A stretch of DNA of 64,000 nt from Candidatus Pacebacteria bacterium CG_4_9_14_0_2_um_filter_40_15 (GTDB lineage: Bacteria > Patescibacteriota > Microgenomatia > UBA1400 > PJMF01), in contig PFRS01000008.1 in assembly GCA_002788675.1 (NCBI GenBank), positions 70,848-134,847 of the forward strand. Reading direction: 5' to 3'. This document shows, one piece after another, positions 12,700 to 40,358 of the stretch (position 1 is the first letter of the stretch; the number at the start of each line of letters is the position of its first letter). The notes under the pieces are model-generated. The model was not told where the DNA came from. It saw only the letters and a list, made by a program, of their open reading frames with translations, and ran no database searches. A program made the translations under genes and the position numbers.

Positions 12700-14007
12700 A
12701 TGTCTGAAAAGCAAAAACCAAAGCAAGATGAGGAAGTTCAGCAGTCTAGACTAGAAACATGGCACGCTAAAGTAGAAAGAGCTAGTGAAGTGTTGGATAA
12801 GCTGTTTTCAGTGTCTAGCATCCCGGAATCAGAACTTTCAGAGCCACAACGTCTTGTTCGTGAGGCTGTTCTAGGTGCAACTCAAGACGTTGAAACTTTT
12901 TTATTACGGGAATCGTTTCATATTTCTGAAAAAACAAAAAATTATTTCAATTTTTCAAATTTTGCTGATGCTATCCATGATAACCCCTCCCAGTTATATG
13001 AGAATGAAAATGTTAAGGTAGATCAAGAGGATGTTTTTGCGGCATTTTCAGTTTCTCCTCGTCTCGAAGCCGTTTTAAAAGAATTAGAATATTTTACAGT
13101 TGAAGATGTATTAGTTATTATTCGTGAGCAAATTATAAGTCAAATTTTTGCAGAAAGAGTGACTGAGATAGCCTTGGAAATGATTAAGTCAATGGTCCCA
13201 GATTTTGCTCCTCAAACTCAAACGGTAGTACTAGTTTGCCCAGTATCTGAAGGATTTGCCGAAGACGCTGCATATGATGGATTAATAGATGGAGTGGGAA
13301 ATGTTATTGAACTTGATGTCACGCTAGATCCCTACAGGAATATCCTCAATGAAGAAGCATCTTTAGAGTTTGTTACTGCTATTTCTTCTGCTGTGCATGA
13401 ACTTTTTCATGCACGGCATGGTGAATTAATAAATGAAGGAATAAGTGAAGAGGAACCAGCTCTGACAAGTAATGGCCCCTATATTGATGTAGCCGTTCAG
13501 ACACGTGAGTCCTTTGAATTTTGGTGTGAAGAAAACTTTGGTGTTGATTATACGGAAGATGCCATTTACTATGTTGAAGATTCGGTGTCTGAAGGTATAG
13601 CCCTTTTTTTTGAGATCTATATACTTGCTCAATGGAAGAAGCAGGTGTATCAGGAAACACCAGATCTTGTCATGTTAATTCAGAATTATTTGAATGATAG
13701 GTTTGAAGGTTTGCGTCAGAAAAGTGATTCTGAAGATAACAACATAGAAGACTTTTACTATATAGGTTTGCAAATGATGCGTCAGTTAATGGCTCAATTT
13801 TCTTTTTCAGAGGTAATTGCAATTATAAAAGACATTGACATCTCGGCATGCATGACAATTCCAAATGACTCTCCTCAGGCAATTCAGATGCAAAAAGATG
13901 CTCGGTTATTACCTGGCTTGGAGAAAAATGTTGCTGTGCAAAAGTCATTAGGACTTGAGCAGAGGAATAGTTTGATGTCTCTGAAACAGAGACTAGATCT
14001 TCCCTAG
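12700..14007 (+). CDS. Hypothetical cytoplasmic protein carrying an HExxH motif (putative zinc metallopeptidase-like)
   Basis: AVHELFHARHGE. No signal peptide and no other recognisable domain. Confidence 0.4.
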   Translation: MSEKQKPKQDEEVQQSRLETWHAKVERASEVLDKLFSVSSIPESELSEPQRLVREAVLGATQDVETFLLRESFHISEKTKNYFNFSNFADAIHDNPSQLYENENVKVDQEDVFAAFSVSPRLEAVLKELEYFTVEDVLVIIREQIISQIFAERVTEIALEMIKSMVPDFAPQTQTVVLVCPVSEGFAEDAAYDGLIDGVGNVIELDVTLDPYRNILNEEASLEFVTAISSAVHELFHARHGELINEGISEEEPALTSNGPYIDVAVQTRESFEFWCEENFGVDYTEDAIYYVEDSVSEGIALFFEIYILAQWKKQVYQETPDLVMLIQNYLNDRFEGLRQKSDSEDNNIEDFYYIGLQMMRQLMAQFSFSEVIAIIKDIDISACMTIPNDSPQAIQMQKDARLLPGLEKNVAVQKSLGLEQRNSLMSLKQRLDLP

Positions 14008-14040: not shown

Positions 14041-14805
14041 ATGACGCAACAACTTGAACTTACCAACCTCCATGTTTCAATCGAAGAAAAGGAAATTCTC
14101 AAAGGTATTTCCCTAAGTGTAAAGCCAGGAGAAATCCATGCTATCATGGGCCCAAATGGGTCGGGTAAGTCGACAACGGCCGCAACTTTAGCAGGGCATC
14201 CGACCTACTCTGTAACCAGTGGCGATATGCTTCTTGATGGTGAGTCATTACTTGAAAAATCACCTGATGAACGTGCCCAAATGGGACTCTTTTTAGCCTT
14301 TCAGTATCCGGTTGAAGTACCTGGTGTTAAGGTGCAAAATTTCCTTCGCCATGCCCATCAAGCTCGATTTGCTGATGAGCCAAAGAAATTGTTTGCAAAA
14401 GTTATTGACTTTAGAAAACATTTAAAAGCTCTTGCAGCTGAATTGCAAATTAATCCCGAACTGCTTACCCGTGGCCTCAATGAAGGTTTTAGTGGCGGAG
14501 AAAAGAAACAGCTTGAAATTCTTCAAATGGCAGTATTAGAACCAAAGTATGCCATTTTAGATGAAACAGACTCTGGCTTAGACATCGATGCAATTAAAAA
14601 AGTTTCGGCTGGTGTTGTTAAAGTTGCCAAAAAACATGGCACAGGAGTGCTTGTTATTACGCACTACAAACGTATTTTAGAGTTTCTTAAACCAGGCTTT
14701 GTGCATGTGATGGTTAAAGGCAAAATTGTTAAAAATGGCGGTCCAGAATTAGTTGATACATTAGAGGCCGAAGGATATAAAGACTGGGTCGGTGAAGAGA
14801 ATTAA
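14041..14805 (+). CDS. sufC: Fe-S cluster assembly ATPase SufC
   Basis: KGISLSVKPGEIHAIMGPNGSGKST..., FSGGEKK and ILDETDSGLD. Confidence 0.9.
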   Translation: MTQQLELTNLHVSIEEKEILKGISLSVKPGEIHAIMGPNGSGKSTTAATLAGHPTYSVTSGDMLLDGESLLEKSPDERAQMGLFLAFQYPVEVPGVKVQNFLRHAHQARFADEPKKLFAKVIDFRKHLKALAAELQINPELLTRGLNEGFSGGEKKQLEILQMAVLEPKYAILDETDSGLDIDAIKKVSAGVVKVAKKHGTGVLVITHYKRILEFLKPGFVHVMVKGKIVKNGGPELVDTLEAEGYKDWVGEEN

Positions 14806-14824
14806 TTTTTCTCGAAAGGAATGT

Positions 14825-15316
14825 ATGGCAGTAAGAAATCCACATCAACTTACCGATTCGGTAAAATTGTTGCAAAAAGTTGTCATTGTTCATAAAGGAA
14901 AAGTCTTGTTACTGCAACGTGATAGTAACTCTGCCACTCGCCCAGAGAAGTGGGATCTTCCTGGAGGTAACTCAGAATGGCCTTCAGAAGAAAAACTTGG
15001 AAGCCGTGGGCTGCATCAAGAAGATGTGGCTCGAGAGATAATGGAAGAAACAGGTATCACTGTAGTTCCAGGGCACTTTGCACTTGATAAGCTGGTGTAT
15101 TTTGACACAACTTTTTTTAACGACGTTTTTACTGTTTTATCTGGGTGGATGGTGGAACTTCCGCATGATTTTGAGATTGATTCGGTTGAATTATCACACG
15201 AACATACGGCATACGAATGGGTTTCATTTGATGAAGCTCGAGAGTATGATTTTGGATTTGCCAAAGAATTTATTGTACCTATGATTCGAACTACCCAGGA
15301 TACCTTTTCTGCATAG
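14825..15316 (+). CDS. NUDIX hydrolase inserted between sufC and sufB
   Basis: Nudix box LPGGNSEWPSEEKLGSRGLHQEDVAREIMEETGI, which carries an insertion. The start was placed at the ATG at 14825 to remove the overlap with sufC. Confidence 0.6.
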   Translation: MAVRNPHQLTDSVKLLQKVVIVHKGKVLLLQRDSNSATRPEKWDLPGGNSEWPSEEKLGSRGLHQEDVAREIMEETGITVVPGHFALDKLVYFDTTFFNDVFTVLSGWMVELPHDFEIDSVELSHEHTAYEWVSFDEAREYDFGFAKEFIVPMIRTTQDTFSA

Positions 15317-15331
15317 AAAGATTACTCACTA

Positions 15332-17890
15332 ATGGCTCGTTTTGCGCAAAAAACCACCACCGATTATGAGGCTGCCGATAGCTATGAGCACGGCTATGCC
15401 TTTCCAACATCAACATATAGTCATATCACCAAGCCAGGTATTTCTGAAGGTGTCGTTCGTGAAATTTCAGATATGAAGGGTGAGCCTGAATGGATGCTTA
15501 ACTATCGTCTAAAGGCTTTCAAACAGTTCGAAGCAAAAATGAATCCTCTATGGGGAGCTGATCTGAGCGAAATTCACTTCGATAAAATTCATTACTATCT
15601 TAAAGCTTCCAGTGGTGAAGGTAAAAGTTGGGATGATGTTCCTAAAGATGTGAAAGAAACCTTTGATCGTTTGGGTATTCCTGAAGCAGAGCGAGGTATT
15701 CTTGCTGGGGTTAAAGCGCAGTACGATAGTGAAGTTGTGTACGGTTCACTCAAAGATGTATGGGCAAAAGATGGCGTAGTTTTTTTGTCGATGGATGAAG
15801 GACTCAAACAGTATCCCGATTTAATTAAAGAATATTTTGGTAAAGCAATTCCTAGTGGAGATAATAAATACTCAGCACTCAATACTTCAGTGTGGAGTGG
15901 TGGATCATTTGTGTATATTCCCAAAGGTGTAGACGTAAAAATGCCGCTGCAAACGTATTTTAGAATAAATGCAGAAAATGCTGGTCAGTTTGAGCGCACT
16001 CTGATTATCGTTGATGAAGGCGCGAGTGTGCACTATATCGAAGGATGCTTTACTGAGGGGACTCAAATTTCAACAAGTGATGGTTTAGTTGCAATAGAAG
16101 ACATTACTAAGGAATCAAAAGTTCTGACACATAAGGGAATCTATAAATCTGTGTATCATACTCAGGTTAGACCGTATTCAGGGCAACTCTATACCGTTGT
16201 TGTTACTGGACAGCCAAGTGAAACAATTGAAGCAACAGAGGAACATCCGTTCTTAGTTGTGAAAAGAAAGTACCGAAAAGATCGAAACAAAGAATGGAAG
16301 AGTGAATGGCTACCTGTAAAAGAGCTAAAAAAAGGTGATTATGTTTGTACTCCGATTGATCAAACAGAGAATATACAAGATACCCTTATCTATGAAGTCC
16401 CGGTGGGAAATGGCAGGCATGGTTGGCAGTTAGAAAAGCTAGAAATTCCTTGCACTACAGATTTATTTAAGTTGATAGGTTACTATCTTGCTGAAGGTAG
16501 TATAAGTGCTGGCTCATACCTAAACTTTTCCTTTAACAGCTCAGAACGAGAATATATCGAAGAGGTTAAAAAATTATTTTTTACCGTTTTTGGAGAGACA
16601 AGAGTTCGCGAGTCACACCATGAAAAAAACAATGGAATAAACGTCGTAGTCAGTTCAGTGAGGTTATGTCGATTTTTCGAACAATTTGGAACACACTCAA
16701 GCAGTAAAATCATGCCAGAATGGGTGCTTCAAGAATCTAGTGAGAAGCAGGCAGCACTTGTGTCAACTTGGTATAAGGGAGATGGAAATTACTACCGTAA
16801 GCAGACAAAGCATGGGTTTAAAGAAATGTTCAGGGTTTCTACGACTTCGAGAACATTAGCGTTTCAGGGGAGAATGGTACTAGCTCGATTAGGTATTGCT
16901 AGTTCGTTAAATAGCCAAGATAGAAGATCAACACAGAGACAGACTATGTATAACCTAGTGATTGGCGGAGAATACATGATTCCATTTGGAACCATTGTTG
17001 ATCAGCCGATCCAACCACAAGTATGGAACAAGAAGCGAGCAACACCTTATTTTGTTGATAAAAACTATTTATATGCCCCAGTTAGGAGCATCACTTCGAA
17101 AACTGTGGAAAATATTTCTGTGTATAACTTCAGTGTTACAGATGACGAAAGTTATGTTGCGGATGGGGTTGCCGTTCACAACTGCACCGCCCCAAACTTT
17201 AGTAGTGGTTCCTTGCACTCAGCAGTGGTTGAAATCTTCGTTAAAAAAGGAGCACGCTGCCAATACACCACGGTCCAAAATTGGTATAAAAATGTTTACA
17301 ATTTAGTTACCAAGCGTGCCTATGTGGAAGAAGAAGGTCAGATGATTTGGACAGACTTTAACATGGGATCAAAAGTGACTATGAAGTATCCCGGCTTTAT
17401 TTTGGCAGGAAAAGGAGCTCGTGGTGAGACCTTGTCTATGGCTTTAGCAGGTGCAGGACAGCACCAGGATACGGGTTCTAAGGCGATTCACTTAGCTCCA
17501 TACACAAGTTCTACAATTATTTCTAAGTCGATTAGTAAAGATGGCGGTCGCACTAGTTACCGCGGGCTGGTGAGTGTGGGTCCAAATGCACATCACTCAA
17601 AAAATACCGTTATTTGTGACGCGCTGTTGCTTGATGGTCAGTCGCGCTCCGATACCTACCCTGTAGATAAAATCTTTAACTCGCATGTTGAAGTGCAGCA
17701 CGAAGCAACTGTTTCAAAAATTGGAGATGATCAATTATTTTACTTAATGAGTCGTGGTGTGACGGAAGAAAATGCTCGCAAAATGATTGTAAATGGCTTT
17801 ATTGAAGACTTAGTGCGCAAACTTCCACTGGAATATGCTGTAGAAATGAATCGTTTGATTGATCACGAGATGGAAGGGAGTATTGGCTAA
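15332..17890 (+). CDS. sufB: Fe-S cluster assembly protein SufB, interrupted in frame by a 379-aa intein (852-aa precursor; about 473-aa mature SufB)
   Basis: The N-extein ends ...ASVHYIEG and the C-extein resumes CTAPNFSSGSLHSAVVEI..., matching E. coli SufB ...YIEGCSAPV...LHAAVVEV. The C-terminus DDQLFY...MIVNGFIEDL is conserved. Confidence 0.9.
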   Translation: MARFAQKTTTDYEAADSYEHGYAFPTSTYSHITKPGISEGVVREISDMKGEPEWMLNYRLKAFKQFEAKMNPLWGADLSEIHFDKIHYYLKASSGEGKSWDDVPKDVKETFDRLGIPEAERGILAGVKAQYDSEVVYGSLKDVWAKDGVVFLSMDEGLKQYPDLIKEYFGKAIPSGDNKYSALNTSVWSGGSFVYIPKGVDVKMPLQTYFRINAENAGQFERTLIIVDEGASVHYIEGCFTEGTQISTSDGLVAIEDITKESKVLTHKGIYKSVYHTQVRPYSGQLYTVVVTGQPSETIEATEEHPFLVVKRKYRKDRNKEWKSEWLPVKELKKGDYVCTPIDQTENIQDTLIYEVPVGNGRHGWQLEKLEIPCTTDLFKLIGYYLAEGSISAGSYLNFSFNSSEREYIEEVKKLFFTVFGETRVRESHHEKNNGINVVVSSVRLCRFFEQFGTHSSSKIMPEWVLQESSEKQAALVSTWYKGDGNYYRKQTKHGFKEMFRVSTTSRTLAFQGRMVLARLGIASSLNSQDRRSTQRQTMYNLVIGGEYMIPFGTIVDQPIQPQVWNKKRATPYFVDKNYLYAPVRSITSKTVENISVYNFSVTDDESYVADGVAVHNCTAPNFSSGSLHSAVVEIFVKKGARCQYTTVQNWYKNVYNLVTKRAYVEEEGQMIWTDFNMGSKVTMKYPGFILAGKGARGETLSMALAGAGQHQDTGSKAIHLAPYTSSTIISKSISKDGGRTSYRGLVSVGPNAHHSKNTVICDALLLDGQSRSDTYPVDKIFNSHVEVQHEATVSKIGDDQLFYLMSRGVTEENARKMIVNGFIEDLVRKLPLEYAVEMNRLIDHEMEGSIG
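16046..17182 (+). mobile_element. Intein with LAGLIDADG homing-endonuclease domain inside sufB
   Basis: Block A CFTEGTQISTSDG. Block B TEEHPFLV. LAGLIDADG-like LIGYYLAEGS and WYKGDGNYY. Blocks F/G VYNFSVTDDESYVADGVAVHN followed by the +1 Cys of CTAP. Confidence 0.85.
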
Positions 17891-18384
17891 TGCAATCAGT
17901 ACAAACCTTTACCATTGGTCGTGATATGCACGAAACTATTACTTTAGAAAAACCAGGTAAGTACCTAGTAGAATTAGTTGGTCCCGGGGCAGAAGCCACT
18001 ATAACTGGTGTGTGGGATGCAAAGGGCAACGATGATGTTTCTGTTGAAGTAGTTATTCATCACAAAGCTCCGAATACTTTGGCAAATACAACTATGCATG
18101 GTGTTGGTCGAGACAAAGCTACTGTTCGTTTTGTTGGCCGAATTATTATTGATCCTGAGTGTGGAAACAGTAACTCATTTTTAACCGAAAGAGTGCTCCT
18201 TCTTTCTGACCAAGCAAAAGCCGAAACAGTTCCAGACCTCGAAATTCTCACAGACGATGTGAAGTGTTCACATGCTGCCAGCATCAGTCGTATTCCTGAA
18301 GAACAGTTGTTCTATCTGCAGAGCCGTGGCATTATGCGCACTACTGCAGAAGATATGATTGTTGAGGGATTTTTGGCGATTTAA
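17890..18384 (+). CDS. sufD: Short SufD-like protein (SufBD family, 164 aa)
   Basis: The C-terminus EEQLFYLQSRGIMRTTAEDMIVEGFL resembles the SufB/SufD C-termini. It overlaps the sufB stop (TAATG). It has only about 40% of canonical SufD length. Confidence 0.6.
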   Translation: MQSVQTFTIGRDMHETITLEKPGKYLVELVGPGAEATITGVWDAKGNDDVSVEVVIHHKAPNTLANTTMHGVGRDKATVRFVGRIIIDPECGNSNSFLTERVLLLSDQAKAETVPDLEILTDDVKCSHAASISRIPEEQLFYLQSRGIMRTTAEDMIVEGFLAI

Positions 18385-18395
18385 AGGTGTGTTAA

Positions 18396-18842
18396 TTAGA
18401 AGAGCCACAGTTTAACATACGCTAACGTAGCAATTCCCGATAGCATCATCACAACTTGCCAAAAAGTCTGGTATCCAAAGTAAATAGCTTCACCTTCAAA
18501 AAACTGATGTCCCCATAAGTCCTTAGGTTTATTTCTGTGTTTGCTCGTAAACTGCTCGGCTATCCAGTACTGTACTTCTCCCTGCGCTCTAACAAACCAA
18601 AATAGAGAGATAAGTGCATAGAAGAGATGCACATCTTGAAGAATGCCTGAAAGGAGGGCAACAAGTATCCAGTACGGACCAATCGTGAGTGCATCACCCC
18701 AGACAAAGATGCCGAGTGGAAACAAACCACGGGTTACTTTAAACGAGTTTTTGAGTTGGGCAGATTGGTAGTAGCCCTTTAAAGTTATTAGAAAACCAGT
18801 GCTGCCAACTAAACACATGAGCGGGACAAAGATGGTAATCAT
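18396..18842 (-). CDS. Hypothetical membrane protein
   Basis: 148 aa with four hydrophobic helices. Confidence 0.4.
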   Translation of the reverse strand: MITIFVPLMCLVGSTGFLITLKGYYQSAQLKNSFKVTRGLFPLGIFVWGDALTIGPYWILVALLSGILQDVHLFYALISLFWFVRAQGEVQYWIAEQFTSKHRNKPKDLWGHQFFEGEAIYFGYQTFWQVVMMLSGIATLAYVKLWLF

Positions 18843-18851
18843 AGTGTACTT

Positions 18852-19544
18852 TTATACGTTTTCGATTGGATCAATGGCACCTGCTTCGTCGAAGTGTCCG
18901 ATGATTATTTCTGTAAATTGTGATTGACCGTATTTTCCTGGGTAAGGCGATTCCATACTTACGTATAACTCATTTCCTTTTCCATAAAAAGGTACTGGGC
19001 TGTTCTTTTTAAGCAGTCCGATTTTTACGATTTTTGGCACTTGTAGTGTATCTGCTTGAAAGAAATGAGTGTCGCTTCCAAATTGTTTTGAAGGATTGTG
19101 TAAGATCATTACCTCAACAGTATTAGAATCTGTAATGCGTGCCCCGAGTATTTCCATGTCTGCTGTAGTACTAAATGTTCCAGCTAGAAAACTTTTTAGT
19201 GATTGGGCATGATTATTGATTTGTTCTGTTTTAACTGCTGCGAGAATAGTTTCATCAATGAGAAAATCTGGATACTGTACAAAGCTTGGTGAATCAATGA
19301 ATTCTGAAATTTCTGTTTGAAGTCTATCTGCCTCTGACGTGTTGTAGTCTAAGACTTGGTTTAAAGTGATAACGCGAATCGCTGTCAGAGCATCTGCATC
19401 TGGGTGGGTTTGAATGAGTTCCCAATTTTCTTCTGTATATTCACCCGCAACAGCTGCTAACATTTCGGGGGTAAGTGAATTGACGAGCGCCAGTTTTTGA
19501 GGATCGTGTAACTTTGAAGTAAGTTTTTCTTTGAGATATGACAT
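18852..19544 (-). CDS. Hypothetical protein
   Basis: The start was trimmed to the ATG at 19544 (MSYLKEKL). The longer track ORF starts in the sufS promoter and start region. Confidence 0.4.
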   Translation of the reverse strand: MSYLKEKLTSKLHDPQKLALVNSLTPEMLAAVAGEYTEENWELIQTHPDADALTAIRVITLNQVLDYNTSEADRLQTEISEFIDSPSFVQYPDFLIDETILAAVKTEQINNHAQSLKSFLAGTFSTTADMEILGARITDSNTVEVMILHNPSKQFGSDTHFFQADTLQVPKIVKIGLLKKNSPVPFYGKGNELYVSMESPYPGKYGQSQFTEIIIGHFDEAGAIDPIENV

Positions 19545-19654: not shown

Positions 19655-20878
19655 ATGAATAGTGATTTACAACTGACCAAAGATTTTCCAATATTAGATC
19701 GAAAAGTGCACAACACCAGGCTTGTGTATTTTGACAACGCCGCCACAACTCAAAAACCAGAAGCAGTCATGTCTGCAATGACTCAGTATTATCAAACGAG
19801 TAATGCAAATGTGCATCGAGGAGTTCACACACTCAGCGATGAAAGTACATTGGCGGTAGAAAAAGCTCGAAAGACTATTTCTTCCTTTTTAGGTGCAGAT
19901 GCTTCTGAACTTATTTTAGTGCGAAACACAACAGAAGCATTAAATGGCATTCTCTATGGTTGGGCGCTGCACAATTTGGCTGAAGGTGATGTGGTTATCA
20001 CATCACAACTTGAGCATCACTCAAACTTTGTGGTTTGGCAGGAAGCGTGTAAGCACACAGGAGCAGAGCTTAAAGTAATACCCGTTTTGGAAGATAGTAC
20101 GCTTGATTATAAGTGGCTTGAAGCAAATGTTGCTCATGCTAAGTTGATTGCTCTTACCTATGTTTCAAATGCTGTTGGCTCAGTGCTTGATGTAGAGCGA
20201 GTAGTTACTGTGGCAAAGAAGGTGGGTGCGCGAGTGGCTATAGATGGAGCTCAAGCAGTTGCGCATATGCCAGTTTCTTTCAAAAGTTTAGGAGTAGATT
20301 TTTTTGCCTTCAGTGGACATAAAATGTACGGCCCAATGGGAAGCGGCGGATTGTTAGTTCGCTCTGAACTTTTTAAATCAAATGAAATGCAGCCGTGGCT
20401 CTTTGGTGGCGGTATGATTGCAGAAGTCTATGAAAATAAGACAAAGTTTCATGACGATCCAATCGAGCGATTTACTGCGGGTACACCGGACGTAGCAAGT
20501 GCAGTCGGATTAGCTGCAGCATGTGAATATCTTTCGAAAATAGGAATGAAAACAGTTGAAAAGCATGACGAAGAGCTAGTCGCGTATGCGTTCGAAAAAT
20601 TACAAGCCATCCCACAAGTAACGATTGTTGGTCCGACATCAAAAAGAGTTGGATCAGTCAGTTTTCTCTATGAAGGTGTTCACTCACACGATGTAGCCCA
20701 GGTATTAGATAGCCAGGGAATTGCTGTCAGGTCGGGACATCACTGCACTATGCCACTACATGTTGCTAACAATTGGATAGCTACCACTAGAGCAAGTTTT
20801 GCTGTCTATAATTCTAAAGAAGATATTGATTTATTGGTGTTAGGATTACAAAAAGTAGCAGAAGTATTTGGAAAATAG
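19655..20878 (+). CDS. sufS: Cysteine desulfurase SufS
   Basis: FDNAATTQKP, TSQLEHHSN, and the SGHKMYGP PLP-lysine motif. Confidence 0.9.
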   Translation: MNSDLQLTKDFPILDRKVHNTRLVYFDNAATTQKPEAVMSAMTQYYQTSNANVHRGVHTLSDESTLAVEKARKTISSFLGADASELILVRNTTEALNGILYGWALHNLAEGDVVITSQLEHHSNFVVWQEACKHTGAELKVIPVLEDSTLDYKWLEANVAHAKLIALTYVSNAVGSVLDVERVVTVAKKVGARVAIDGAQAVAHMPVSFKSLGVDFFAFSGHKMYGPMGSGGLLVRSELFKSNEMQPWLFGGGMIAEVYENKTKFHDDPIERFTAGTPDVASAVGLAAACEYLSKIGMKTVEKHDEELVAYAFEKLQAIPQVTIVGPTSKRVGSVSFLYEGVHSHDVAQVLDSQGIAVRSGHHCTMPLHVANNWIATTRASFAVYNSKEDIDLLVLGLQKVAEVFGK

Positions 20879-20879
20879 T

Positions 20880-21248
20880 ATGACAGAAGATCTCTACCAA
20901 GAAGTACTCCTTGAAGCTGCAGAAAATCCACAAAATTTTGGAACCTTATCTAATTTTACGCATGAGTTCGATGGCTTTAACGCTTCGTGCGGAGATAAAA
21001 TTCATGTGCAGTTGCAGGTTGATGTCGCAGGCACAATCTCAGACATCGCTTGGCAAGGTGACGGCTGTATTATTTCGCAAGCGGCGATGAGTGCAGTTTC
21101 TGAATTTGTGAAGAACAAGCCGGTTGCAGATCTGGAAGAGCTTTCATTAGCAGATATACTTGAGCTTTTGCATTTCGATACCATCTCCCCAGGTCGAATT
21201 AAATGTTGTATGCTAGGTCTTGAGTCTGTGCGAAAAGCATTGGGCTAA
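20880..21248 (+). CDS. sufU: SufU/IscU-like Fe-S assembly sulfur-acceptor protein
   Basis: NPQNFG, ASCGDKI, DGCIISQAA, and a C-terminal Cys (IKCC). The start was moved to the ATG at 20880, just after the sufS stop. Confidence 0.75.
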   Translation: MTEDLYQEVLLEAAENPQNFGTLSNFTHEFDGFNASCGDKIHVQLQVDVAGTISDIAWQGDGCIISQAAMSAVSEFVKNKPVADLEELSLADILELLHFDTISPGRIKCCMLGLESVRKALG

Positions 21249-21964: not shown

Positions 21965-22531
21965 ATGCACATCTTCGTAGGTTCCCACAATCCAGTAAAA
22001 ATCAATGCAGTTACCATTGCTGCTTCAGAAACTTGGCCAGATGCAACTCTGGTTGGCTATGACGTTCCCAGTGGGGTTGATGAACAGCCCGTTGGTGACG
22101 ATATGACCCGGAATGGGGCTATAAACAGAGCTCAAGCAGCATTGCACGATGGTTTGGTTGCTCACGATCAATTATCTGAGATCGACGAAGTTCTCGGTGT
22201 TGGTTTGGAAGGTGGAGTCATGGAGTTTGGCACTGAAATGTGGTCAACCGTTTGGGTTGCAGTTGTTGATAATTCAGGCAATGTATGTGAAAGCAATGGA
22301 GCTCGTTTTAGAGTTCCAGAAATTGTTGCAGAAAAAATTCGAGCAGGTGAAGAGATGGGTCCAATTGTGGCCAAAATTTCTGGTGTGTCGGATGTAAGAA
22401 AGAAACAAGGATTTATTGGAGTACTCACAGACGGTTTTGTTGATAGAACAGAAGAGTATTCTGGAATCGCCAAGATGGCACTGGGTGTTTGGTATGGAAG
22501 AAACTGGCAGGATAGGCTGCAAACTGAATAG
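21965..22531 (+). CDS. Inosine/xanthosine triphosphatase (YjjX/DUF84 family), putative
   Basis: Collinear similarity to E. coli YjjX: SHNPVKINAV..., VPSGVDEQPVG, RVPEIVAEKIRAGEEMGPIVAK, KQGFIGVLTDG. Confidence 0.55.
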   Translation: MHIFVGSHNPVKINAVTIAASETWPDATLVGYDVPSGVDEQPVGDDMTRNGAINRAQAALHDGLVAHDQLSEIDEVLGVGLEGGVMEFGTEMWSTVWVAVVDNSGNVCESNGARFRVPEIVAEKIRAGEEMGPIVAKISGVSDVRKKQGFIGVLTDGFVDRTEEYSGIAKMALGVWYGRNWQDRLQTE

Positions 22532-22550
22532 TCTAGTAAAATAAGGAAGG

Positions 22551-23267
22551 ATGAGGAGTATGCCTCCACAACAATTTAAAGCAAGAATCGAAGACAGAGT
22601 TATTCAAAATGATAAGTTTTTTACTATTTCATTTGAATTAATTGAGCCTGGAGCAATGGAATTTAAGGCTGGTCAGTATGTATCAATTAAAGTTGATGCA
22701 GCTGGTACACGTAGAAGCTATTCTATCGCAAGTCGACCAGATATTAACCATGGCTTTGAGTTGGCAATAGACGTTACTCCAGGTGGAGTCGGCACAACAT
22801 TTTTGCGTGACATGCCAATAGGAACTGAGGTTGAAGTTTTGGGTCCACTTGGGTCATTTGTGATCGCCGACGATCCAACTGAAAAAGCTATAGTGTTGGT
22901 TGGCACAGGTTCAGGCATTGCTCCACTTCGCTCAATGCTTTTAGACCTGCTTCAGGTTAAACAGGACACACGCCCTATTATTTTACATTGGGGTATTCGG
23001 TTTGTTGAATCTTTGTTTTGGGAGAATGAGTTCCAAGATATTGTTGAGCGATTCCCTAATTTTAAATTTCATCCAGTCGTTTCAAAAGCTATTGACGGGT
23101 GGACACTCTGCCGTGGTAGAGTAACAGACTGTTTATCTACACATGAATTACCAACAGAAGCTGGTTACTATTTATGTGGTGGTAAACCAATGATTGAATC
23201 CGTGGTGAAATTATTAGGAGAACGAGGCATTGCTCCAGAGCATATTCATCATGAAAAGTTTTTCTAA
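22551..23267 (+). CDS. FAD/NAD(P)-binding oxidoreductase of the ferredoxin-NADP reductase family
   Basis: The RSYSIAS FAD-binding motif and the GTGSGIAPLRSML NAD(P)-binding motif. Confidence 0.7.
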   Translation: MRSMPPQQFKARIEDRVIQNDKFFTISFELIEPGAMEFKAGQYVSIKVDAAGTRRSYSIASRPDINHGFELAIDVTPGGVGTTFLRDMPIGTEVEVLGPLGSFVIADDPTEKAIVLVGTGSGIAPLRSMLLDLLQVKQDTRPIILHWGIRFVESLFWENEFQDIVERFPNFKFHPVVSKAIDGWTLCRGRVTDCLSTHELPTEAGYYLCGGKPMIESVVKLLGERGIAPEHIHHEKFF

Positions 23268-39729: not shown

Positions 39730-40358
39730 ACCTCCAAGTAGAATAAAAATAGTTCCTGGATCAAAGTTTAGGAACTATTTATTTTTCTACTTGAAGCTAC
39801 TTTATTTGAGTATATAAAAGAACATCACTCAAAATGAGCAAACGAAGTGTTTGCACAGAGTGATTTTGTGGAGATGGCGAAGAGTGACCTCGCGTCCGAA
39901 ATAGCAGCATGAATATCATCTACAGATTTAGTCTATCCTTGTTAATGCAGTAGAGGGAAAATAGACAAGCCTTCATACTACAATCTCCGTCTAAAAGTCT
40001 TAGAATAGTTCCGACGAACGAGAACTACCTGTCACACTAGCTGGGTTGATCACATACTCCCTCACACCAGTGAGATGAAAAGAGTACATGCCTTTTTCTA
40101 AGCTTAAGCAGCTATGAAAGAAGGAGCAAAGCTCATTGAAGGAGCTAAGTCAGCGATTGCTTTCTTAGTGTTCAGGAGAATGCTTTTTGCAGTATTATTT
40201 GCAATTATGTTTTTGACTCTGTTTTGCGTCTGTTAGTCAAAGACGATCTGCAGATATTAATGAGCGTATCCCGTCAAAGCAGTTCATCCCCACTTTAACA
40301 AATGTTATAAGATTATTATAGTATACTGCGACTAGAATCACAATTGCGAACTTGTGAA

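What the first reader, a model, noticed from the sequence alone, without database searches (positions are those of the whole stretch)
15332..18384. SufB carries a full-size LAGLIDADG intein; the suf cluster also has a Nudix insert and a minimal SufD
The 852-aa SufB holds a 379-aa insertion after the conserved YIEG, and the extein resumes at CTAP. The insertion starts with Cys, has an N-terminal Hint block, two LAGLIDADG-like motifs, and ends ...VAVHN before the +1 Cys. That makes it a mobile protein-splicing element in an essential Fe-S assembly gene. A Nudix hydrolase sits between sufC and sufB. SufD is only 164 aa, the beta-helix C-terminal part alone.
Basis: partly seen in the sequence, partly recalled or inferred. 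Interest (0 to 1): 0.62.

Follow-up and report, generated by a model that had tools for sequence, protein, structure and literature searches.

The report
Homing-endonuclease intein inside patescibacterial SufB
The iron-sulfur assembly gene sufB of this Pacebacteria genome is interrupted by a complete self-splicing intein with a homing endonuclease, at the same site as the known Mycobacterium tuberculosis SufB intein, so it is a real but ordinary mobile element.

Summary
SufB (15332-17890, 852 aa) carries a 379-aa in-frame insertion (aa 239-617, DNA 16046-17182) between ...VHYIEG and CTAP.... The insertion has every class-1 intein signature: Cys1, block B TxxH, block F Asp, His-Asn, and Cys+1. 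It also has two LAGLIDADG motifs with their acidic residues. A confident AlphaFold model matches solved endonuclease-bearing inteins.

The insertion site is exactly that of the M. tuberculosis SufB (Pps1) intein, and the two inteins are homologous along their whole length (27% identity, E 1e-27). The +1 Cys aligns with E. coli SufB Cys254, the sulfur-entry residue.

Relatives show the typical pattern of a mobile intein. Two sister species carry the full intein, other relatives carry mini-inteins at the same site, and most have an empty site. The endonuclease domain is under strong purifying selection (dN/dS 0.05).

The Nudix gene between sufC and sufB is real and conserved in part of the clade. 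The 164-aa SufD is a conserved trait of Microgenomates-type Patescibacteria, and it retains the His360-equivalent residue.

Verdict: a new member of a known kind, of low to moderate interest. The half-size SufD is the least documented element.

The parts
14041..14805 (+). sufC (Fe-S assembly ATPase), first gene of the cluster
   Evidence: TIGR01978 sufC 324.6 bits, above the cut-off of 212.8.
14792..15316 (+). Nudix hydrolase gene between sufC and sufB. It is 174 aa from the GTG at 14792, or 163 aa from the ATG at 14825 as annotated by NCBI.
   Evidence: Pfam NUDIX 9.1e-10, 39.1 bits, above the cut-off of 21.1. The Nudix-box core REIMEETGI is invariant among orthologs. The closest solved structure is 3grn, 'MutT related protein', E 2e-14. 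The gene is present at this position in L005, L006, L007, L013, L086, L088, L090, L092 and L093, and absent in L008-L012 and L014-L016.
15332..17890 (+). sufB precursor ORF (852 aa including the intein)
   Evidence: [quoted passage not shown]
15332..16045 (+). N-extein (aa 1-238), ending ...VHYIEG, with His at position -5
   Evidence: It aligns to E. coli SufB up to Gly253.
16046..17182 (+). Intein, 379 aa (SufB aa 239-617)
   Evidence: Boundaries. Alignment with 12 same-site inteins is. AF2 model pLDDT 91.7, pTM 0.90. Foldseek top hits are TliVMA, PI-TkoII, PI-SceI and PI-PfuI.
16046..16084 (+). Splicing block A (CFTEGTQISTSDG), with the Cys1 nucleophile
   Evidence: C1 is invariant in alignment A1. 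Coordinates.
16229..16258 (+). Splicing block B (EATEEHPFLV), with the TxxH motif at T64 and H67
   Evidence: T64 and H67 are invariant in A1. Coordinates.
16361..17020 (+). LAGLIDADG homing-endonuclease domain (intein residues ~106-325)
   Evidence: This is the region precisely missing in the mini-inteins at the same site. Pfam LAGLIDADG_3 matches in two stretches. The domain matches I-DmoI structures. dN/dS is 0.051 against L090.
16463..16507 (+). LAGLIDADG motif 1 (LFKLIGYYLAEGSIS), with the acidic residue at intein Glu150
   Evidence: Conserved in all nine full-size homologs and in the Mtu intein, LAGYYLAEGH. Coordinates.
16745..16795 (+). LAGLIDADG motif 2 (KQAALVSTWYKGDGNYY), with the acidic residue at intein Asp246
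   Evidence: GDG is conserved in all full-size homologs and in Mtu, YVNGDGNV. Coordinates.
17120..17182 (+). Splicing blocks F and G (VYNFSVTDDESYVADG / VAVHN), with block F Asp367, penultimate His378 and terminal Asn379
   Evidence: D367, H378 and N379 are invariant in A1. TIGR01443 intein_Cterm scores above its cut-off.
17183..17890 (+). C-extein (235 aa plus stop), starting with Cys+1 of CTAP
   Evidence: Cys+1 aligns with E. coli SufB Cys254. All 80 intein-less SufBs examined have exactly 235 aa from this Cys to the C-terminus. The Mtu C-extein is given as 235 aa and starts with CTAP.
17890..18384 (+). Short sufD (164 aa), whose start codon overlaps the sufB stop codon
   Evidence: SUFBD_core 4.3e-44, covering profile positions 98-232 only. 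The DDVKCSH motif corresponds to E. coli SufD Cys358/His360. AF2 pLDDT 93.9. Foldseek hit to 5awg_B with TMq 0.89 and rmsd 2.4 A. 605 homologs were found, and the best 120 are all 152-206 aa.
19655..20878 (+). sufS cysteine desulfurase, after two minus-strand ORFs inserted between sufD and sufS
   Evidence: TIGR01979 502 bits, above the cut-off of 475.
20868..21248 (+). sufU-like sulfur-transfer protein
   Evidence: NifU_N 2.3e-19. TIGR01994 scores 73.7 bits, below its cut-off of 92.5.

Best explanation
The sufB gene of this Candidatus Pacebacteria (Patescibacteria) genome is interrupted by a canonical class-1 intein that houses a two-motif LAGLIDADG homing endonuclease. It is an allele of the intein family that occupies the HY(I/V)EG|C(T/S)AP site of SufB, the same site as the Mycobacterium tuberculosis SufB (Pps1) intein.

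Inferred mechanism: the 852-aa precursor is translated as one chain. Cys1 performs the N-S acyl shift, assisted by block B Thr64/His67. Cys+1 attacks to form the branched intermediate. Asn379 cyclises, assisted by His378 and block F Asp367. The 238-aa and 235-aa exteins are then ligated into a 473-aa SufB. That SufB assembles with SufC and the 164-aa SufD.

The excised 379-aa protein is expected to cut intein-less sufB alleles at the reconstituted ...CAYTAYATHGARGGN|TGYACNGCNCC... site and to copy itself in by recombinational repair (homing).

What is shown: anatomy, site identity, homology to the Mtu intein, fold, patchy distribution, and purifying selection on the endonuclease. What is inferred: actual splicing, actual DNA cleavage, and any redox sensitivity.
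For: Anatomy:
- Intein, Hint and LAGLIDADG models score above their cut-offs.
- The AF2 model has pLDDT 91.7 and pTM 0.90. Its top structural matches are endonuclease-bearing inteins: 7qsu at E 3e-18, then 2cw7, 1vde and 1dq3. The endonuclease domain matches I-DmoI.

Site:
- Cys+1 aligns with E. coli SufB Cys254, described as the sulfur-entry Cys in PMC6006206.
- The Mtu junctions VHYVEG/CLPAGE and FAVHN/CTAPIYK are identical in position (PMC8891592 supplement).
- The two inteins align over their whole length with 27% identity and E 1e-27.

Mobility pattern:
- The 11 nearest species representatives are intein-less.
- Sister species L088 and L090 carry 379-aa inteins. L092 and L093 are intein-less.
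- Mini-inteins occupy the same site in P0025, P0028, P0029 and P0038.
- Homologs at 40-50% identity occur in SufB of DPANN archaea, Curtissbacteria and Thermoflexales.
- Intein identity stays at about 46-49% while C-extein identity ranges from 56 to 80%.

Selection and integrity:
- Endonuclease-domain dN/dS is 0.051 (dN 0.071, dS 1.41) against L090. That equals the N-extein value of 0.051.
- The gene is intact and identical in 69 sample blocks.
Against: There is no experimental evidence of splicing or DNA cleavage for this allele. The block F His found in many inteins is absent here (DESY), as it is in the Mtu intein (PDSY). His-38 of the Mtu N-extein, reported to assist N-cleavage, is Asp here. 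dS is near saturation for most comparisons, so only the L090 comparison gives a usable ratio. Purifying selection on the endonuclease domain could reflect a role other than homing.
Confidence: 0.9

Rival explanations
1. The intein still splices, but its endonuclease no longer homes. On this view the domain is retained because it stabilises the splicing fold or has another role, and the intein persists by vertical inheritance alone.
For: The window species, L088 and L090 all carry a 379-aa intein with no indels. Intein divergence roughly tracks extein divergence between them, which is compatible with vertical descent in a small clade. The exact allele appears fixed, with 69 sample blocks and no intein-less variant in its 90% cluster.
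Against: Both LAGLIDADG acidic residues (Glu150, Asp246) are conserved in all nine full-size homologs and in Mtu. dN/dS of 0.051 is hard to explain for a useless domain. Relatives show that the domain can be deleted cleanly while the splicing blocks are kept, as in the mini-inteins, so it is not needed for the fold. The cross-domain spread of this intein lineage implies recent mobility.
Confidence: 0.2
2. The intein also acts as a conditional, redox-sensitive switch. Cys1 and Cys+1 would form a disulfide under oxidative stress and delay SufB maturation, as proposed for the M. tuberculosis SufB intein. This is compatible with the best explanation rather than exclusive of it.
For: It shares the site and the Cys1/Cys+1 pair with the Mtu intein, for which oxidative inhibition through a Cys1-Cys+1 disulfide is reported (review PMC8529194 citing Topilina 2015). 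The +1 Cys is the sulfur-entry residue. In relatives the suf cluster sits next to superoxide dismutase, Nudix and YjjX-type NTPase genes.
Against: Nothing in the sequence tests this. Most relatives manage without the intein, so any regulatory role is dispensable. A Cys1/Cys+1 pair is common among inteins.
Confidence: 0.25
3. The insertion is a lineage-specific SufB domain or a degenerate Hint-like remnant that stays in the mature protein and does not splice.
For: None beyond the lack of experimental data.
Against: All splicing residues are invariant. Closest relatives have an uninterrupted HY[IV]EGCTAP motif. The insertion splits the beta-helix at the residue aligned with the essential Cys254. 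In M. tuberculosis the unspliced precursor cannot bind SufC or SufD (PMC8529194 citing Huet 2006).
Confidence: 0.02

Closest known systems
Mycobacterium tuberculosis SufB (Pps1, Rv1461) intein
   Same: The insertion site is identical...VHY(V/I)EG | C...HN | CTAP, with His at -5, Cys1, Cys+1 and a 235-aa C-extein. Both have a Hint splicing domain split by a two-motif LAGLIDADG endonuclease. Homology runs over the whole length (27% identity, E 1e-27). Shared motifs include GYYLAEG, GDGN and VYN..V...(D)SY...G.AVHN.
   Different: The window intein is 379 aa and the Mtu intein 359 aa. They are strongly diverged. The host is a Patescibacteria MAG with SufU and a half-size SufD, not an actinobacterium. 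His-38 of the Mtu N-extein is Asp here. There are no biochemical data for this allele.
Same-site SufB inteins of Patescibacteria, DPANN archaea and Chloroflexi in metagenomes (P0001-P0018, L088, L090)
   Same: They share the site and the architecture, at 40-87% identity. These are the true allelic family of the window intein.
   Different: Most of these are unannotated or labelled only 'LAGLIDADG family homing endonuclease, partial' or 'SufB'. Some hosts carry a second intein at GNLG|S(K/R)xTMKYP (P0192, P0193, P0195, P0200), which the window lacks.
Mini-inteins at the same SufB site (P0025, P0028, P0029, P0038)
   Same: They share the site and the splicing blocks, which align with the window's (38-52% identity by the global alignment). 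P0025 sits in the same sufC-Nudix-sufB-short sufD cluster.
   Different: The endonuclease domain, about 215 aa, is deleted. They represent the degenerate stage of the homing cycle.
Solved endonuclease-bearing inteins: TliVMA (7qsu), PI-TkoII (2cw7), PI-SceI (1vde), PI-PfuI (1dq3)
   Same: They share the overall fold: a Hint horseshoe plus a LAGLIDADG domain (Foldseek E 3e-18 to 5e-12, TMq 0.55-0.70).
   Different: Sequence identity is only 11-16%, the host proteins differ, and several have extra DNA-recognition regions or stirrup domains. No sequence-level match to any PDB intein was found beyond a BIL domain.
E. coli SufD (423 aa; 1vh4, 5awf chain B)
   Same: The window SufD aligns to residues 304-395 by sequence, and the whole protein superposes on the distal beta-helix plus the first C-terminal helices (TMq 0.89, rmsd 2.4 A). 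Pro347, Cys358, His360, Tyr374, Arg378, Gly379, Ala385 and Phe393 equivalents are invariant or nearly so in the short family (residue list from PMC6006206).
   Different: It lacks the N-terminal helical domain, roughly half of the beta-helix, and the last ~27 residues of the C-terminal helical domain. Its TIGR01981 score of 157 is below the equivalog cut-off of 222.

Membership tests
Class-1 intein (Hint-fold protein-splicing element) | In-frame insertion in a conserved host protein whose flanks form a contiguous ortholog once the insertion is removed | tested here: met
   The spliced 473-aa sequence aligns end to end with E. coli SufB. The site is uninterrupted (HY[IV/L]EGC[TS]AP) in the 11 nearest relatives and in 69 further SufBs.
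Class-1 intein (Hint-fold protein-splicing element) | Block A N-terminal nucleophile (Cys/Ser) and block B TxxH | tested here: met
   Cys1, Thr64 and His67 are invariant in 13 same-site inteins. TIGR01445 scores above its cut-off.
Class-1 intein (Hint-fold protein-splicing element) | Block G His-Asn followed by a +1 Cys/Ser/Thr, and block F Asp | tested here: met
   His378, Asn379, Asp367 and Cys+1 are present. TIGR01443 scores above its cut-off. The block F His is absent, as in the Mtu SufB intein.
Class-1 intein (Hint-fold protein-splicing element) | Autocatalytic excision with extein ligation | not testable with these tools
   This needs expression followed by SDS-PAGE or mass spectrometry.
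LAGLIDADG homing endonuclease (single-chain, two-motif) | Two LAGLIDADG helices, each ending in a catalytic acidic residue | tested here: met
   The motifs are LIGYYLAEG (Glu150) and STWYKGDG (Asp246), conserved in all full-size homologs. Pfam LAGLIDADG_3 matches in two stretches at 1.3e-14.
LAGLIDADG homing endonuclease (single-chain, two-motif) | The alpha-beta-beta-alpha-beta-beta-alpha pseudo-dimer fold | tested here: met
   The AF2 model has pLDDT 91.7. The endonuclease domain matches I-DmoI and I-Tsp061I with TMt about 0.7.
LAGLIDADG homing endonuclease (single-chain, two-motif) | Site-specific cleavage of the intein-less allele | not testable with these tools
   Only indirect support is available: dN/dS of 0.051 on the domain and a patchy, cross-lineage distribution.
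SufB intein allele family at the M. tuberculosis (Pps1) site | Insertion between Gly and Cys of HY(V/I)EG|CTAP, equivalent to E. coli Gly253|Cys254 | tested here: met
   Established.
SufB intein allele family at the M. tuberculosis (Pps1) site | Sequence homology of the intein itself to the Mtu SufB intein | tested here: met
   BLASTP gives 27% identity over 404 columns spanning the whole intein, E 1e-27.
SufD (Fe-S assembly, SufBC2D complex) | SUFBD core beta-helix with the conserved His (E. coli His360) and a gene adjacent to sufB | tested here: met
   Pfam SUFBD_core 4.3e-44. The DDVKCSH motif is aligned and His128 is invariant. The start codon overlaps the sufB stop codon.
SufD (Fe-S assembly, SufBC2D complex) | Full-length architecture: N-terminal helical domain, nine-turn beta-helix and complete C-terminal helical domain, with a score above the TIGR01981 equivalog cut-off | tested here: not met
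   The protein is only 164 aa, with five turns and two helices. TIGR01981 scores 157.2, below the cut-off of 222. It is best called a truncated SufD-family paralog typical of Microgenomates.
Nudix hydrolase | Nudix fold and a Nudix box with the REx2EExGU core | tested here: met
   Pfam NUDIX scores above its cut-off. REIMEETGI is invariant among orthologs, and the box carries a lineage-specific insertion between the GG and the RE core. The substrate is unknown, and no NCBIfam equivalog cut-off is reached.

The most novel reading that the evidence does not exclude
Microgenomates-type Patescibacteria may run a structurally reduced SUF scaffold. In it a full-size SufB would pair with a half-size SufD (~160 aa) that lacks the N-terminal domain, half of the beta-helix and the last helices. 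In a few lineages, maturation of that scaffold would additionally be gated by an intein sitting on the sulfur-entry cysteine, so that splicing (possibly redox-sensitive through Cys1/Cys+1) controls when Fe-S assembly can start. The recurrent Nudix, YjjX-type NTPase and superoxide dismutase neighbours would then mark an oxidative-stress module. Nothing in my data excludes this. Only the conservation of the short SufD and of the gene neighbourhood is actually shown.
Probability: 0.2. Interest if true: 0.5.

Novelty: new member of a known kind. Interest (0 to 1): 0.3.

Why it matters
For intein biology, this adds a well-preserved allele of the medically studied M. tuberculosis SufB intein family. 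It has both active-site acidic residues, and its endonuclease is under strong selection. It comes from an uncultured, reduced-genome bacterium. Sister alleles in DPANN archaea and Chloroflexi document cross-domain spread at one of the most conserved motifs of SufB.

It also gives a natural series for studying the homing cycle at a single site: empty site, full intein, mini-intein and double intein.

For Fe-S biology, the conserved 160-aa SufD suggests that only the distal beta-helix turns, the conserved His and the first C-terminal helices are needed for SufD function. That could guide minimal-scaffold experiments.

None of this overturns current understanding.

Tried and rejected
- I first read the ~1.9-kb tblastn matches in the nearest genomes as mini-inteins. 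ORF analysis showed they were SufB matches running on into the paralogous SufD, and those SufBs are intein-less.
- The apparent truncation of SufB in L086 (P0002) looked like a pseudogene. It is a 100-N scaffold gap.
- Sequence search of the PDB with the intein found only a bacterial intein-like domain, so structure-based search was needed.
- dN/dS against P0001, P0002 and P0025 was useless because dS was saturated. Closer relatives had to be fetched through their SufD proteins.
- Key older papers (Topilina 2015, Huet 2006, the pps1 endonuclease paper) are not held. The Mtu site was instead established from the supplement of PMC8891592.
- Literature searches found nothing specific on inteins in the Candidate Phyla Radiation (CPR) or on short SufD in Patescibacteria.
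- I checked whether the missing half of SufD could be the unannotated 435-aa ORF upstream of sufC. It has no Pfam hit and no homolog in the relatives' clusters.
- The promoter and terminator scan was no better than chance.
- No second intein exists in the window.
Full report

Yes. The ORF table gives sufC at 14041-14805, a Nudix ORF at 14792-15316, sufB at 15332-17890 (852 aa), and sufD at 17890-18384 (164 aa, start overlapping the sufB stop). After two minus-strand ORFs come sufS (19655-20878) and a sufU-like gene (20868-21248).

Pfam and NCBIfam confirm each assignment. SufB hits TIGR01980 at 678 bits in two pieces that flank residues ~240-615. The gap between them is filled by Hint_2, PT-HINT, Intein_splicing, two LAGLIDADG_3 stretches, intein_Nterm and intein_Cterm, all above their curated cut-offs.

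The insertion is SufB residues 239-617 (379 aa, DNA 16046-17182). Its junctions are ...ASVHYIEG/CFTEGTQ... and ...DGVAVHN/CTAPNFSS. GC content of the intein (38.9%) is close to that of the exteins (41-43%) and the window (39.7%), so there is no compositional sign of very recent arrival.

**2. What the insertion is**

Deleting it gives a 473-aa protein that aligns from residue 18 to the C-terminus with E. coli SufB (5awf_A, E 8e-112). The junction falls between E. coli Gly253 and Cys254. Cys254 is described as the sulfur-entry residue that first accepts persulfide sulfur on SufB, and Glu252 as a residue lining the proposed sulfur tunnel (PMC6006206). So the intein's +1 nucleophile is itself a catalytic residue of the host. 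This fits the usual preference of inteins for the most conserved functional motifs.

I aligned the intein with eight other full-size and four mini-inteins found at the same site (alignment A1). Invariant residues are Cys1, Thr64 and His67 (block B TxxH), Asp367 (block F), and His378-Asn379 (block G).

The two LAGLIDADG motifs are LIGYYLAEGS (Glu150) and STWYKGDGNY (Asp246). They are conserved in every full-size member.

An AlphaFold2 model built on A1 is confident (pLDDT 91.7, pTM 0.90). Its best structural matches in the PDB are endonuclease-bearing inteins: TliVMA 7qsu at E 3e-18, then PI-TkoII 2cw7, PI-SceI 1vde and PI-PfuI 1dq3. These are followed by the free two-motif endonuclease I-DmoI for the central domain.

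A profile of A1 finds no other intein in the window.

**3. Organism and conservation**

[quoted passage not shown] The name does not mention the intein. The protein occurs in 69 sample blocks, including a contig of more than 1 Mb.

A scan of one genome per species shows that the eleven closest SufBs are all intein-less, at 475-498 aa. They come from Pacebacteria, Woesebacteria, Chisholmbacteria, the Microgenomates group and some mislabelled MAGs. My first impression that they carried mini-inteins was an artefact of tblastn running on into SufD.

I then fetched closer relatives through their SufD proteins, which gave a finer picture.
- Species with 90% and 83% SufD identity (L088, L090) have 852-aa SufBs with 379-aa inteins.
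- Species with 80% and 74% SufD identity (L092, L093) have intein-less SufBs of 473/474 aa.
- L005 (P0025) and P0028, from the same clade, carry 161- and 167-aa mini-inteins at the same site. In these the endonuclease domain is cleanly deleted.

Further homologs at 40-50% identity sit at the same site in SufB of DPANN archaea (Nanoarchaeota, Diapherotrites, 'archaeon'), Curtissbacteria and Thermoflexales. Intein identity stays near 46-49% while C-extein identity varies from 56 to 80%. This decoupling is expected if the intein moves horizontally.

An exhaustive profile search also turned up SufBs with two inteins. The second lies at GNLG|S(K/R)xTMKYP (P0192, P0193, P0195, P0200).

**4. Is the endonuclease alive?**

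Against distant alleles dS is saturated. Against L090, however, the endonuclease domain gives dN 0.071, dS 1.41 and dN/dS 0.051. That equals the N-extein value (0.051) and is only about fourfold higher than the very conserved C-extein (0.014).

The evidence therefore points to an endonuclease domain that is functional, not decaying:
- both acidic residues are conserved;
- no frameshifts or stop codons occur in three species;
- relatives exist in which the domain has been lost.

Cleavage itself is untested.

The presumed homing site is conserved at the protein level (HY[IVL]EG|C[TS]AP[NS]F). At the DNA level it differs mostly at third codon positions, with 28-43 of 48 bases identical to the window flanks.

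**5. Comparison with what is known**

SufB inteins are long known in mycobacteria and in Ferroplasma (PMC8891592). The supplement of that paper gives the M. tuberculosis domain sequences. The N-extein ends ...GSYVHYVEG, the intein runs CLPAGELITT...YGFAVHN, and the C-extein starts CTAPIYKSD. This is exactly the window's site.

Independently, all 80 intein-less SufBs I collected have exactly 235 residues from this Cys to the C-terminus. That equals the reported Mtu C-extein length.

The two inteins are homologous across both the splicing and endonuclease domains: 27% identity over 404 aligned columns, E 1e-27. They share GYYLAEG, GDGN and the block F/G string VYN..V...SY...G.AVHN.

The window element is therefore a diverged allele of a known intein family at a known site.

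Three small differences stand out.
- His-38 of the Mtu N-extein is Asp here.
- The host uses SufU, not SufE.
- The host's SufD is half-size.

For the Mtu protein, the unspliced precursor cannot bind SufC or SufD, and oxidants inhibit splicing through a Cys1-Cys+1 disulfide (review PMC8529194). The same chemistry is possible here, but that is inference only.

**6. The short SufD**

The 164-aa protein matches only the last 135 positions of SUFBD_core. By sequence it aligns to E. coli SufD residues 304-395, including DDVKCSH, which corresponds to Cys358 and His360.

605 homologs were retrieved. The best 120 are all 152-206 aa, and those that are labelled come from Patescibacteria or Microgenomates. 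All twelve relatives' clusters have a 151-187-aa SufD immediately after sufB.

In the family alignment, the equivalents of Pro347, His360, Tyr374, Arg378, Gly379, Ala385 and Phe393 are invariant, and the Cys358 equivalent is invariant or nearly so. These are the residues listed as highly conserved in E. coli SufD.

The AF2 model (pLDDT 93.9) has ten strands, forming five two-stranded turns, plus two helices. It superposes on E. coli SufD in the SufBCD crystal with TMq 0.89 and rmsd 2.4 A.

This is a lineage trait under selection and not a truncation artefact. It fails the TIGR01981 equivalog cut-off (157 against 222). I found no paper describing it.

**7. The Nudix gene**

It is a genuine Nudix protein with the REx2EExGI core. 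Its closest solved relative is a 'MutT related protein', 3grn.

It lies between sufC and sufB in the window and in L005, L006, L007, L013, L086, L088, L090, L092 and L093, but not in L008-L012 or L014-L016. Several relatives have a second Nudix gene upstream of sufC, preceded by an RNase-H-like gene and a superoxide dismutase gene. Downstream of sufU they have a YjjX-type NTPase, an FNR-like reductase, a ferredoxin and a DsbA-like gene.

An oxidative-stress or nucleotide-sanitising module is a reasonable inference. The substrate is unknown.

**8. Verdict**

Both the observation and the interpretation are correct. The element is a new member of a known kind: an allele of the SufB intein at the M. 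tuberculosis site, in a new host phylum, with an apparently functional endonuclease.

It would not surprise a specialist. The conserved half-size SufD and the natural series of empty, full, mini and double-intein alleles are useful but incremental. Interest: 0.3.

Noticed in passing
P0192, P0193, P0195, P0200; equivalent window position is SufB ...TDFNMG|SKVTMKYP (C-extein, about 17400-17440): Some SufB proteins from metagenomes carry two inteins. One is at the window's site. The second is a LAGLIDADG intein between GNLG and S(K/R)xTMKYP, with Ser as the +1 residue. The window has only the first.
   Followed up: partly
L005, L086, L088, L092, L093; window 21965-23267: A conserved extended neighbourhood is seen in this clade: SOD, RNase-H-like, Nudix, sufC, Nudix, sufB, short sufD, sufS, sufU, YjjX-type NTPase (NTPase_I-T), FNR-like reductase, ferredoxin, DsbA-like. 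The window keeps the NTPase (21965-22531) and the FNR-like gene (22551-23267). This suggests an oxidative-stress or nucleotide-sanitation module around suf.
   Followed up: partly
window 18396-19544 (minus strand): Two minus-strand ORFs with no Pfam hit (148 aa, which looks hydrophobic, and about 230 aa) are inserted between sufD and sufS. In L005, L009, L011, L012, L014, L016, L092 and L093, sufS follows sufD directly.
   Followed up: no
window 39866-40291 (-): Rfam detects a tmRNA here (104.7 bits, full model, 426 nt for a 374-position model). ARAGORN did not report it, possibly because of an insertion or an unusual structure.
   Followed up: no
window 12700-14007 (+): A 435-aa ORF immediately upstream of sufC has no Pfam hit and no counterpart in the relatives' suf neighbourhoods.
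   Followed up: partly
P0033, P0034, P0024, P0262: Related inteins (29-35% identity for P0024, P0033 and P0034) interrupt other Fe-S-related proteins in metagenomes: NifU_N/IscU-type scaffold proteins (P0033, P0034) and a NuoI/formate-hydrogenlyase-subunit-6-like ferredoxin (P0024). P0262 appears similar, with CxxCxxC motifs.
   Followed up: no
P0061 (PJA68505.1, PJC41346.1): Two NCBI records annotate the same SufB as a 649-aa protein starting at Met204 (MPLQTYF...). This is an N-terminally truncated gene call for an otherwise identical sequence.
   Followed up: no
L086 5876-5975: The MAG GCA_964509285.1 has a 100-N scaffold gap inside its intein-containing sufB. This makes the gene call look like a truncated 524-aa protein (P0002).
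   Followed up: yes
L006, L009, L012, L013, P0064 record titles: Several MAGs whose suf clusters are plainly Microgenomates-type are titled 'uncultured Pseudomonadales bacterium' in their public records. This looks like a taxonomic mislabel.
   Followed up: no
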